DNA of 64,000 bases from Octopus vulgaris. Taxonomy: Eukaryota. Location: contig OX597824.1 in assembly GCA_951406725.2 (NCBI GenBank), positions 69,998,001 through 70,062,000 of the forward strand. Reading direction: 5' to 3'. Position 1 is the first letter of the stretch; every line of letters begins with the position of its first letter. Both the position numbers and the translations under genes were made by a program. A model generated the notes under the pieces. The model was not told where the DNA came from and did not search any database. It was given only the letters and a program-made list of their open reading frames with translations. This document shows, piece by piece, positions 5,094 through 31,346 of the stretch.

Positions 5094-5696
5094 AGGCGGC
5101 GAGCTGGCAGAAATGTTAGCGCGCCGGGTGAAATGCTTAGCGGTATTTCGTCAGCCGTTACGTTCTGAGTTCAAATTCCGCCGAGATCGACTTTGCCTTT
5201 TATCCTTTCGGGGTCGATAAATTAAGTACCAGTTACGCACTGAGGTCGATGTAATCGACTTAATACCTATGTCTGTCCTTGTTTGTCTCCTCTGTGTTTA
5301 GCCCCTCGTGGGTAATAAAGAAATAGGTATTTCGTCAGCCGTTACGTTCTGAGTTCAAATTCTGCCGAGATCGACTTTGCCTTTTATCCTTTCGGAGTCG
5401 ATAAATAAAGTACCAGTTACGCACTGGGGTCGATGTAATCGACATAATCCGTGTGTCGTCTGTCCTTGTTTGTCCCCTCTGTGTTTAGCTCCTTCTGGCT
5501 AGTAAAGAAATAGGTATTTCGTCTGCCGTTGCGTTCTGAGTTCAAATTTCGCCGAGATCGACTTTGCCTTTTATACTTTCAGGGTTGATAAATAAAATAC
5601 CAGTTACGCACTGGGGTCGATCTAATCGACTTAATCCCTTTGTCTGTCCTTGCTTGTCCCCTTTATGCTTAGCCCCTTGAAATTATAAGAAATATA
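5094..5696 (+). mobile_element. SINE family C (Meta/MESC-like domain): one head plus three tandem body units
   Basis: Head GGCGGCGAGCTGGCAG; units start at 5142, 5326 and 5513; 13-bp TSD TATTATTGTTGTT at 5081-5093 and 5697-5709. Confidence 0.85.
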
Positions 5697-6496: not shown

Positions 6497-6629
6497 CGAC
6501 GATGAAGATGATGATGATGATGATGACGATGATGACGATGATGGTGACGACGGCGACGACGACGACGACGACGATGATGATGATGATGACGTCGATGATG
6601 ATGATGATGATGACGACGACGACGACATC

Positions 6630-6673
<44 letters not shown>

Positions 6674-6734
6674 CGATGAAGATGATGATGATGATGATAA
6701 TGACGATGATGATGATGATGATAGCGATGATGGT

Positions 6735-19529: not shown

Positions 19530-20191
19530 CTCTTTTACTCTTTTACTTGTTTCAGTCATTTGACTGCGGCCATGCTGGAGCACCGCCTTTAGTCGAGCAA
19601 ATCGACCCCGGGACTTATTCTTTTGTAAGCCCAGTACTTATTCTGTCAGTCTCTTTTGCCGAACCGCTAAGTGACGGGGACGTAAACACACCAGCATCGG
19701 TTGTCAAGCAATGCTAGGGGGACAAACACAGACACACAAACATATACACACACACTTATATATATATATACATATATACGACAGGCTTCTTTCAGTTTCC
19801 GTCTACCAAATCCACTCACAAGGCATTGGTCGGCCCGGGGCTATAGCAGAAGACACTTGCCCAAGATTTATTCTTTGTAAGCCCAGTACTTATTCTATCA
19901 GTCTCTTTTGCCGAACCGCTAAGTGACGGGGACGTAAACACACCAGCATCGGTTGTCAAGCAATGCTAGGGGGACAAACACAGACACACAAACATATACA
20001 CACACACTTATATATATATATACATATATATGACAGGCTTCTTTCAGTTTCCGTCTACCAAATCCACTCACAAGGCATTGGTCGGCCCGGGGCTATAGCA
20101 GAAGACACTTGCCCAAGATGCCGCGCAGTGGGACTGAACCCGGAACCATGTGGTTGGTTAGCAAGCTACTTACCACACAGCCACTCCTGCG
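19530..20191 (-). mobile_element. SINE family B with an internal 252-bp tandem duplication
   Basis: ~19616-19867 is repeated at ~19868-20119; identical ORF starts at 19711 and 19963. Confidence 0.9.
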
Positions 20192-29330: not shown

Positions 29331-29391
29331 ATAAGACTCGAGTTGCATTGTTGAGTATATGTACCACGTGACCTAATTCCATAAATTACAT

Positions 29392-29460
<69 letters not shown>

Positions 29461-29578
29461 AATCAAGGAACGGCCATAATAGGCCATTCACCCACTAGAA
29501 ATAACAGCCAAAGCTTTAACCGCAAAATAACATTAATTCCGTAAACCAGGAGAAAATTAAAAAAACGTTTACCCTGTA

Positions 29579-29685
29579 ATTTCTTATACGATGCACCGTT
29601 TCATCTACTGTTTAATGGTAAACTAACCTGATTAAATTAAATCAAGCCAATCTTCCATAGGCCCTTAGATTCCTCAGTAAGAAAT
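29579..29685 (-). ncRNA. Type I hammerhead ribozyme, copy 1
   Basis: Minus strand reads atttctta CTGAGGA atcta n58 tagat GAAA cggtgcatcg TA taagaaat: 8-bp stem I, 5-bp stem II base, near-palindromic stem III, GUA triplet. Confidence 0.85.
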
Positions 29686-30069
29686 AGCCAGAACGGAACA
29701 GATATTTTCACGAGGCATTTCCGTCCCTGCCTCGGCAATATCTGACCTAAAATTTTCAAATCATCGCACTCGCGCCAAATTTATCGGCAGCAAATAAATA
29801 TAAGCCGCCGATTCCATTACGGAATCAACCAGAAAATTCATAATTAATCAATATAGGGTGGCAAAACAGATTTTGTAGAATTTTTTTTGCCACCAGCGGC
29901 CTAGTGGGAAAAAATTAAATAGTCATAGACCATTTATAGGTTCAACATCACAATCAAGGAACGGCCATAATAGGCCATTCACCCACTAGAAATAACAGCC
30001 AAAGCTTTAACCGCAAAATAACATTAATTCCGTAAACCAGGAGAAAATTAAAAAAACGTTTACCCTGTA

Positions 30070-30176
30070 ATTTCTTATATGATGCACCGTTTCATCTACT
30101 GTTTAATGGTAAACTAACCTGATTAAATTAAATCAAGCCAATCTTCCATAGGCCCTTAGATTCCTCAGTAAGAAAT
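30070..30176 (-). ncRNA. Type I hammerhead ribozyme, copy 2
   Basis: Same as copy 1 except one substitution at 30080, which gives an AUA triplet and a C.A mismatch in stem III. Confidence 0.75.
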
Positions 30177-30303
30177 AGCCAGAACGGAACAGATATTTTC
30201 ACGAGGCATTTCCGTCCCTGCCTCGGCAATATCGGACCTAAAATTTTCAAATCATCGCACTCGCGTCAAATTTTGATTAATATTGATTAATATTGATTAA
30301 TTA

Positions 30304-30347
<44 letters not shown>

Positions 30348-30356
30348 CATATACAT

Positions 30357-30406
<50 letters not shown>

Positions 30407-30479: not shown

Positions 30480-30935
30480 TTGACTTTTGATTTGTATTTG
30501 TACAAGTTGTCTCCAAGTCTCACCCAAATTAGAAGTTCTAATTGGTGTTATGGTTACGCTGCACAAAGAATTGTTCTAGAGAATATTTAAGAAAACAAGA
30601 AAATTATTATAAGTTTGTTTTAAGATATGAGATTATATAGACAGTATTTTACGTAGGATATAGGCAGTTCCCATGAACAGTATTTTTTGAATTTCTGCCA
30701 TTTTTAGATTTCCTAGTATCTGAGCTAGGTAGCAATCAGCCCATTTTCCTATCATTCCTAGGGCACCTATGACAACAGGTATCGTTTCTGTCTTGAGGTT
30801 CCATATTTTGCCAATTTCTATTTCAAAATCTTTATATTTGCTCAGCTTTTGGTAGGTCTTGACAGATATATTTATGTCAAGTGGGACAGTCAAATCGATG
30901 AGGAGGCATGATTTTTGTCTGAAGTCCTTCAATAT
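30480..30935 (-). pseudogene. R4/Dong-clade non-LTR retrotransposon 3' end (restriction-like endonuclease domain and 3' UTR)
   Basis: ORF 30633-30983: CLLIDLTVPLDINI...KLSKYKDFEIEIGKIWNLKTETIPVVIGALG, the typical R4-type REL C-terminus; followed by a (GAT/TAA)n tail. Confidence 0.85.
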
Positions 30936-30959
30936 ATTATTATTTTTTTTTTTTTTTTT

Positions 30960-31346
30960 TTCTTCTTTCAAATTTTCTTCCATTTCTTGCCGAGTGTCTT
31001 CCCGACTCCTAGGGCAAAGAAACTCATAGTGTATATTGGTAGGCCATTAAACCAAACTCAGTAGTTCGTTCATTTTTTTTTATTTTTTTTTTAAGTTAAA
31101 TTAAAATACATGAGCAGCAACAGTTCTCACATCGACAATGCTCTTCTCAATACGTGTGATGTACCAGTTAAGACAATCTTTTGCACTTCTTGCAGGGATG
31201 GTAAGCCAGGGATCATTCTCATATAATTTTCGGTTCCCTTCTTGATCATTCCTAGTGCTCCTACGATCACTGGTATTGTAACCGCCTTGAGATGCCACAT
31301 TTTCTCAATTTCAATGAGTAGGTCTTTATATTTTCTAAGCTTGTCA
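30960..31346 (-). pseudogene. Second, divergent R4/Dong-type 3' end
   Basis: Minus frame reads DKLRKYKDLLIEIEKMWHLKAVTIPVIVGALGMIKKG...VQKIVLTGTSHVLRRALSM* (stop at 31127-31129); abuts (TAA)n. Confidence 0.85.

What the first reader, a model, noticed from the sequence alone, without database searches (positions are those of the whole stretch)
29456..30273. Candidate retrozyme or circular-RNA element: 491-bp non-coding tandem repeat with one hammerhead ribozyme per unit
Seen: a 491-bp unit followed by a 327-bp near-identical partial copy, between (TA)n runs. Each copy has a complete minus-strand type I hammerhead (8-bp stem I atttctta/taagaaat, CUGAGGA, stem II base atcta/tagat, GAAA, near-palindromic stem III cggtgcatcg). 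Predicted cuts at 30078/30077 and 29587/29586 would release exactly one 491-nt monomer. The unit is rich in hairpins: cagatatt/aatatctg with cgaggca/tgcctcg, ggtggcaaaa/ttttgccacc, gattcc/ggaatc, and long-range cccactag (29491) with ctagtggg (29901). A G.U-rich hairpin inside the stem II loop works best on the ribozyme strand. Known: animal non-LTR retrozymes and Penelope pseudo-LTRs are tandem repeats with type I hammerheads whose palindromic stem III permits dimeric cleavage, and retrozyme monomers circularise. Inference: a young cephalopod retrozyme-like family with a long monomer and an unusually large stem II insertion.
Basis: partly seen in the sequence, partly recalled or inferred. Interest (0 to 1): 0.85.

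Follow-up and report, generated by a model that had tools for sequence, protein, structure and literature searches.

The report
Retrozyme whose copies record ribozyme cuts

Summary
Mostly confirmed. The 491-bp unit, its 327-bp repeat and a minus-strand type I hammerhead are there. Two corrections: the second hammerhead carries a private G16.2-to-A change, and the insertion has a missed 35-bp inverted arm (30274-30308).

It is a non-coding multicopy family (1752 exact cut-site motifs genome-wide) that inserts into (TA)n. Core positions are about tenfold more conserved than the rest of the unit, while the two tolerant positions (N7, H17) vary. Of 174 sampled insertions, 135 start one end at unit position 1 and the other at about 385; 1 repeats a site and 38 could not be classed. 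This is the Penelope two-start 'tail' footprint, 107 nt here against 30-40 nt in the papers read.

That suggests in vivo cleavage and two templates, a cut monomer and a ring. Cleavage, circles and the partner enzyme are not shown.

New member of a known class. This scan reported the same or sister families elsewhere in this genome.

The parts
29390..29457 (.). Left (TA)n target run
   Evidence: (TRF 29390-29457)
29456..30273 (+). Arm A: inferred cDNA strand starting at fixed start site A (unit position 1), 1.67 units long
   Evidence: 429 exact TA-to-position-1 junctions genome-wide
29456..29946 (+). First full 491-bp unit; longest stop-free frame 47 codons
29947..30273 (+). Second, partial unit (positions 1-327), 3 mismatches to the first
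29579..29685 (-). Type I hammerhead, copy 1, intact; predicted GUA cut between 29587 and 29586
   Evidence: conservation
29608..29665 (-). 58-nt stem II insert forming a G.U-rich hairpin (18 pairs in the consensus fold)
30070..30176 (-). Type I hammerhead, copy 2, with a private G16.2-to-A change at 30080; predicted cut between 30078 and 30077
29587..30077 (-). Predicted 491-nt cut-to-cut RNA monomer, the candidate circle
29840..29946 (+). 107-bp 'tail' between start site B (unit position about 385) and start site A, here as an internal copy
30274..30308 (-).
30307..30405 (.). Right (TA)n target run

Best explanation
This is a protein-free hammerhead repeat (an animal non-LTR retrozyme) that sits in TA microsatellites as two back-to-back arms with two fixed start points, and it was likely copied there by a borrowed Penelope-type reverse transcriptase working on both cut linear RNA monomers and closed RNA rings. 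Steps: (1) the minus strand is transcribed (inferred); (2) the hammerhead, probably as a dimer through the self-complementary stem III, cuts at unit position 131/132 (inferred from conservation and from where arms stop); (3) some monomers are ligated into 491-nt circles by a host ligase (inferred; shown for other retrozymes in PMC7229834); (4) a Penelope RT-endonuclease nicks both strands of (TA)n, and each 3' end primes cDNA at its own internal start site, position 1 or about 385 (the end rule is shown, the enzyme is inferred from PMC11167929); (5) on a cut monomer both cDNAs run out near position 131, the leading one about 12 nt further; on a ring they run on for several turns and stop at random; (6) the two cDNA ends are joined, often through microhomology or short AT-rich filler, giving an inverted two-armed insertion (junctions shown, repair route inferred).
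For: Family: 204 matches among the 40 scored of 1613 candidate regions; 1752 exact cut-site motifs, 2 with U17 and 0 with the non-cleavable G17. Selection on the ribozyme: across 48 insertions, 13 core positions vary in 2 of 624 cells against 728 of 23046 for the unit; N7 takes all four bases; H17 is A in 26 and C in 22. Stem III pairs fully with itself in 21 of 22 aligned units, duplex -17.5 against hairpin -0.2 kcal/mol. The hammerhead fold costs only 2 kcal/mol in the circle. End rule: 135 of 174 insertions have one A and one B end, 1 has two A ends, 0 have two B ends, 38 unclassed. Both ends read away from the TA run on the strand complementary to the ribozyme, as priming on the ribozyme strand predicts. 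First-pass pile-up of the farthest arm end at 100-133: 16 of 55 (4.6 expected) in the first set and 12 of 19 (1.7 expected) in a set fetched after the window was written down; 23 ends lie at 117-133 and none at 134-143. Later passes: 4 of 52, 4.4 expected by chance, 19.3 if the first-pass excess applied (P about 1e-6). In the pile-up, arm A is longer in 21 of 25 (2 shorter, 2 ties; median 12 nt), which symmetric microhomology cannot give. Arms past successive cuts number 136, 51, 19, 9, 2, 2, 0, roughly constant loss per turn. Units within an insertion differ by 0.4-0.6%, between insertions by 4.7%. A young autonomous Penelope-type family with intact 781-codon RT plus GIY-YIG frames, TA targets and two ends 40 nt apart is present in the genome.
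Against: No cleavage or circle was measured. No run on record as RNA is listed; the four runs laid are contigs guessed to be RNA and lack a control. No autonomous element with sequence similarity to the unit was found in the 20 Penelope-type loci compared, and the young family has no hammerhead core in its terminal repeat, so the partner is unidentified. The tail is 107 nt, not 30-40. In vitro, the anole Penelope protein showed no strand preference between its two start sites, did not need ribozyme cleavage, and RNA reads did not end at the cut (PMC11167929). Covariation is thin: 4 of 136 pairs change on both sides, reached by 19 of 500 shuffles, on a structure derived from the same 22 closely related units. 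The nearest other insertion is often as close as the opposite arm, so one template molecule per insertion is not proven by sequence. Most pile-up ends fall 4-14 nt short of the cut. The sample was chosen by exact end patterns on contigs C1-C4, and 48 of 174 insertions (38 unclassed, 9 rearranged, 1 A-A) were left out of the end statistics.
Confidence: 0.68

Rival explanations
1. Same retrozyme and same Penelope-type copying, but all templates are linear: multi-unit arms come from uncleaved read-through transcripts of long genomic arrays, short arms from cut RNAs, and no circle is involved.
For: Unprocessed RNA was the main substrate in vitro for the anole element (PMC11167929). Arrays of 7-8 units exist and could serve as masters. 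Axolotl tissues hold multimeric retrozyme RNAs (PMC7229834). No circle was observed here.
Against: If each hammerhead in a linear multimer cut independently, 5' ends would pile up at every cut, yet later passes show none (4 of 52 against 19.3). It needs all-or-none cleavage although cores are intact, and long masters in each of several subfamilies. Loss per turn is roughly constant.
Confidence: 0.15
2. The template is always a ring or uncut RNA; the first-pass pile-up marks RT stalling at the folded hammerhead, which is already unwound on later turns, so it is no evidence of cleavage.
For: Most pile-up ends (117-127) lie in or at the 3' strand of stem I and its extension. A first-pass-only stall is natural for rolling-circle copying.
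Against: Ends stop sharply at 131-133 with none at 134-143, and stronger hairpins, including the 18-pair stem II insert, show no first-pass pile-up. Several pile-up junctions carry long reiterated AT-rich filler, as if the template had run out. This reading still needs a circle.
Confidence: 0.1
3. A non-autonomous Penelope derivative whose arrays grew in DNA after insertion (unequal crossing over or slippage), with the hammerhead as a decaying passenger.
For: bioRxiv 10.64898/2026.07.22.740005 proposes local DNA amplification for tandem retrozymes and saw cleavage in only 1 of 9 dimers tested. Units within arrays are very alike.
Against: The core is about tenfold more conserved than the unit, with variation confined to tolerant positions. 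Within arrays almost all substitutions are private to one unit and unit lengths vary independently, unlike nested duplication. Multi-unit runs occur in both inverted arms of young insertions.
Confidence: 0.05
4. An ordinary pseudo-LTR left by a full-length Penelope-like element.
For: Inverted arm, tail at one end and TA targeting are Penelope hallmarks (PMC8557442, PMC3846280).
Against: 0 of 174 insertions are fused to a Penelope ORF; hits near 11 of them lie beyond the element's end and a TA run. The unit closes on itself head to tail with no ORF.
Confidence: 0.02

Closest known systems
Metazoan non-LTR retrozymes (coral, Mytilus, axolotl; Cervera and de la Pena 2020, PMC7229834, parts 2-4 of 6 read; Li, Clavereau and Pollet 2026, bioRxiv 10.64898/2026.07.22.740005, parts 1-3 of 5 read)
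   Same: Non-coding tandem units under 50% GC, one type I hammerhead each, weak palindromic stem III, thousands of dispersed copies, co-occurrence with Penelope-like elements.
   Different: Unit of 491 nt (170-400 nt in the 2020 paper); 58-nt stem II insert; A10.1-U11.1 pair; strict (TA)n targeting with two inverted arms and two fixed starts, which the parts read do not describe for retrozymes; circles and cleavage are shown there, only inferred here.
Endonuclease-bearing Penelope-like elements and their tail (Frangieh et al. 2024, PMC11167929, parts 1-2 of 4 read; Craig et al. 2021, PMC8557442 and its preprint, passages; Arkhipova et al. 2013, PMC3846280, passages)
   Same: Inverted 5'-truncated partner arm, a tail at one end only, two internal RT start sites downstream of the hammerhead cut, both target strands primed, AT-rich or (TA)n targets.
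   Different: No ORF; tail 107 nt against 30-40; arms run several times round a small unit; canonical rather than minimal hammerhead (PMC4209133, passages); near-exclusive pairing of one start site per end, where the in vitro work saw no strand difference.
Non-autonomous Chlamys elements such as MRC1 (PMC8557442, passage)
   Same: Non-autonomous Penelope passengers forming multicopy head-to-tail insertions.
   Different: They resemble their autonomous partner at the 3' end and mostly lack hammerheads; no such partner similarity was found here.

Membership tests
Metazoan non-LTR retrozyme | Short tandem repeat units each carrying a type I hammerhead | tested here: met
   Unit 491 nt, above the 170-400 nt of PMC7229834, within the 51-972 bp of the 2026 preprint.
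Metazoan non-LTR retrozyme | No protein-coding capacity, GC under 50% | tested here: met
   Longest stop-free frame 47 codons; GC 37.3%.
Metazoan non-LTR retrozyme | Many dispersed genomic copies (mobile) | tested here: met
   429 A ends, 936 B ends, 1752 cut-site motifs, reversed-pattern controls 0.
Metazoan non-LTR retrozyme | Two consecutive units with complete hammerheads ('active' criterion of the 2026 preprint), at this locus | tested here: not met
   Copy 2 has G16.2-to-A. Met at many other loci of the family, so this lowers the claim for this copy as a source, not for the family.
Metazoan non-LTR retrozyme | RNA self-cleaves at the hammerhead | not testable with these tools
   Indirect support only: conservation and first-pass pile-up.
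Metazoan non-LTR retrozyme | Accumulates as circular RNA | tested here: inconclusive
   Only contigs of runs guessed to be RNA were available; they cannot show ends, strand or circularity. Indirect support.
Metazoan non-LTR retrozyme | No primer binding site or polypurine tract | not tested
   Not searched; insertion anatomy shows no LTR pair.
Penelope-like element, autonomous | ORF with reverse transcriptase and GIY-YIG endonuclease | tested here: not met
   0 of 174 insertions fused to such an ORF.
Penelope-type insertion footprint | Inverted truncated partner arm and tail on one end only | tested here: met
   135 of 174 A-B, 1 A-A, 0 B-B, 38 unclassed; tail 107 nt instead of 30-40.
Penelope-type insertion footprint | Insertion into (TA)n microsatellites | tested here: met
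   Anchored ends were selected for TA; at the far end a TA run lies within 120 bp in 166 of 174.
Penelope-type insertion footprint | Sequence kinship with the terminal repeat of an autonomous partner | tested here: inconclusive
   No credible match in 20 Penelope-type loci; only 150 of 6136 endonuclease candidates were scored.

The most novel reading that the evidence does not exclude
The genome holds a readable fossil record of the retrozyme life cycle: a pair of Penelope-type reverse transcriptases loads on one small RNA at two fixed sites 107 nt apart, one per nicked target strand; about a fifth of insertions come from ribozyme-cut linear monomers (both enzymes run to the cut end, the trailing one stopping about 12 nt behind), and the multi-unit ones from ligated circles copied round and round. 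This would be genomic evidence that the hammerhead cuts in the germ line and that circles are true retrotransposition templates, both so far hypotheses in the papers read.
Probability: 0.55. Interest if true: 0.72.

Novelty: new member of a known kind. Interest (0 to 1): 0.56.

Why it matters
Retrozyme papers propose, without direct test, that a Penelope enzyme copies the RNA circle into tandem DNA (PMC7229834, PMC7761336), and the role of the hammerhead in Penelope biology is called unclear (PMC8557442). This family gives exact, testable numbers: two start sites, a cut site, a first-pass-only stop and a leading/trailing offset. A purified enzyme with linear, circular and cleavage-dead RNA could confirm or kill each step. 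The element class itself is known, and the scan has met this family before.

Tried and rejected
Rfam: no hammerhead family among 51 matches. RNA evidence: no RNA holder listed on record; four runs guessed to be RNA cover the unit with high contig depth and several variants, but no silent-stretch or DNA control was obtained, so this is not counted as expression. A-to-I editing: T>C was the commonest change class, but 32 of the 35 variants I looked up (of 40 shown, 85 in all) already occur among 48 genomic insertions, and within-array A>G changes on the RNA strand were 2 of 85; rejected as evidence. Same-phase junctions between arms with different turn numbers (6 of 44) first looked like circle evidence, but most sit on hairpins or palindromes that give long microhomology; not used. 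Partner search: the GIY-YIG scan returned mainly one young family without a hammerhead or similarity to the unit; a 19-nt match near start site A in two loci is at chance level over 20 loci. A second hammerhead family (L127) shares a short motif but aligns no better than the best of 100 shuffles (159 against mean 136, maximum 167). A possible TATA box at unit 478-484 on the RNA strand is not conserved across subfamilies; dropped. The descriptor missed the true motif, so its shuffle control is void; redone. A look-up of earlier findings by sequence returned nothing.

Full report
Observation. The repeat is real: period 491, with 3 mismatches over 327 bp and GC 37.3%. The minus strand of the first unit carries a complete type I hammerhead (8-bp stem I, CUGAGGA, 5-bp stem II base around a 58-nt insert, GAAA, stem III, GUA), and the two predicted cuts bound 491 nt. 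A descriptor finds only these two motifs in the window and none in 30 shuffles. Two corrections: the second hammerhead has G16.2 changed to A at 30080, and the element continues as a 35-bp inverted arm, 30274-30308, before the right TA run. Rfam gave no hammerhead match.

Family. The window lies in a 2.8-Gb assembly of 227 contigs; the unit has 1613 candidate regions, of which 40 were scored, giving 204 matches, the 150 listed at 95-100% identity. Exact patterns count 429 junctions of TA with unit position 1, 936 with position about 385, and 1752 cut-site motifs, with reversed controls at 0. These are lower bounds. The unit has no frame over 47 codons, and none of 174 insertions is fused to a Penelope ORF; hits near 11 of them lie beyond the element's end and a TA run.

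The ribozyme is under selection. Over 48 insertions, 13 core positions vary in 2 of 624 cells against 728 of 23046 for the whole unit. N7 takes all four bases and H17 is A or C. Genome-wide, H17 is U in 2 motifs and G in none. Stem III pairs fully with itself in 21 of 22 units; as a dimer it gives -17.5 kcal/mol, as a hairpin -0.2, which fits the dimer model described in PMC4209133 (passages). Forcing the hammerhead in the circle costs 2 kcal/mol. Covariation is weaker: 99% of cells pair, most changes are one-sided and G.U-compatible, and 4 of 136 pairs change on both sides (19 of 500 shuffles reach this), on a structure derived from the same close sequences.

Insertion anatomy. I took 98 insertions by the position-1 end (A) and 76 by the position-385 end (B) from contigs C1-C4 (lists; the first B set was picked among places lacking the exact A pattern). 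The far end was the other type in 135, the same type in 1, and unclassed in 38, mostly single arms or truncations; 7 were classed by eye. Both ends read away from the TA run on the strand complementary to the ribozyme, so the ribozyme strand is the likely template and each target strand the likely primer. This matches Penelope-like elements, which carry an inverted truncated arm and a 30-40 bp tail at one end (PMC8557442 and preprint, passages; PMC3846280, passages). The anole enzyme cuts and extends both strands and starts at two internal sites that define the tail (PMC11167929, parts 1-2 of 4). Here the tail is 107 nt. A young autonomous family in this genome has intact 781-codon RT plus GIY-YIG frames, TA targets and ends 40 nt apart. 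A CxxxC-xx-C linker before the endonuclease suggests the Neptune type as described in Craig et al. It shows no hammerhead core in its terminal repeat and no similarity to the unit, so it is a candidate class, not the identified partner.

Where arms stop. For 126 simple A-B insertions (38 unclassed, 9 rearranged and 1 A-A left out) I took the farthest arm end and counted by pass round the unit. In the first set, first-pass ends piled up at positions 100-133, just before the cut at 131/132: 16 of 55 against 4.6 expected. I wrote that window down, fetched 52 further insertions and found 12 of 19 against 1.7. Pooled: 28 of 74 against 6.4, with 23 ends at 117-133 and none at 134-143. Later passes show nothing: 4 of 52, with 4.4 expected by chance and 19.3 if the first-pass excess held (P about 1e-6). 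The pile-up insertions have different flanks and subfamily markers; arm A is the longer in 21 of 25, median 12 nt, while other same-turn insertions split 15 to 11 with 11 near ties; several junctions carry long AT-rich filler. Arms surviving successive cuts number 136, 51, 19, 9, 2, 2, 0. Units differ by 0.41% within an arm, 0.61% between opposite arms and 4.7% between insertions, though the nearest other insertion is often as close.

Mechanism. The simplest reading is two templates. A cut linear monomer has its 5' end at 131, so both cDNAs run out there, the trailing one behind the leading one. A closed ring has no end, so copying stops at random after any number of turns. A sequence-determined joining hotspot would recur on every pass, and independent cleavage of linear multimers would leave ends at every cut; neither is seen. 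Shown: the repeat, the conserved motif, the end rule and the stop distribution. Inferred: transcription, cleavage, ligation, the enzyme and the repair route. My odds: retrozyme moved by Penelope-type machinery about 0.9, in vivo cleavage about 0.8, circle as template about 0.75, the whole model 0.68.

RNA data add little. No run on record as RNA is listed. Four runs guessed to be RNA cover the unit as contigs, without a control. Their variants are mostly genomic subfamily variants, so I see no case for editing.

Against the literature. The element meets the testable retrozyme criteria of PMC7229834 (parts 2-4 of 6) and of the 2026 preprint (parts 1-3 of 5), apart from this locus's damaged second hammerhead. 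Both propose Penelope mobilisation; PMC7761336 (passages) says circles would give cDNA longer than one unit and that animal retrozymes show no motif naming the partner. Six paper searches listed no paper whose title or opening abstract lines describe a cephalopod retrozyme, the one-site-per-end rule in a retrozyme, or a first-pass stop at the cut. I read no supplements, and those of PMC7229834, PMC8557442 and the 2026 preprint may list such elements; subscription journals and Repbase or Dfam were not searched. Earlier notes of this scan describe the same or sister families and the two-start rule; I saw them after my first analysis, and they are not independent support.

Verdict. New member of a known kind, with an unusually informative insertion record that makes the retrozyme circle-to-DNA hypothesis directly testable. 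Interest 0.56.

Noticed in passing
L007:2230-2480 (G000:C2, about 55666320-55666570): A B arm of this family joins directly to an inverted arm of a different hammerhead-like family that ends in TA: a chimeric insertion, which would mean both families use the same enzyme, or two neighbours fused by deletion.
   Followed up: partly
L127:3290-3870 and L211-L230: An older hammerhead family (about 456-nt unit, mostly 70-85% identity, 360 candidate regions) also lies in TA runs with two fixed ends roughly 80-85 nt apart; long tails may be general for these elements.
   Followed up: partly
L130:3700-3900; L127:270-430 and 6600-6720: Further distinct hammerhead motifs beside TA runs, two of them in inverted pairs.
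   Followed up: no
L111-L119: Young autonomous Penelope-type family with an upstream ORF of no known family (479 codons stop to stop; best Pfam E 0.009, under cut-off) before the RT-endonuclease ORF, and repeated CCAAT-like and TGACGTC motifs before a TATA box in its 3' region (motif names recalled).
   Followed up: partly
window 30274-30308; L052, L072, L240, L241: Short reiterated copies of a 4-11 nt segment at arm starts, like slippage or telomerase-type repeat addition during initiation.
   Followed up: partly
arrays among L009-L210: Substitutions private to single units are skewed to C>T on the cDNA strand (26 against 7 for the reverse, P 0.03), possibly deamination of single-stranded cDNA.
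   Followed up: no
L238 (G000:C3:182401512-182406512): The one insertion of 174 with two A-type ends.
   Followed up: no
window 19615-20119 and 5142-5678: Tandem copies of 252-bp and 187-bp dispersed repeats that look like common SINE-type elements (label recalled, no call names them).
   Followed up: no
window 30633-31340: Two short minus-strand frames resembling the C-terminal end of a non-LTR retrotransposon protein, next to an (ATT)n run (resemblance recalled, not searched).
   Followed up: no
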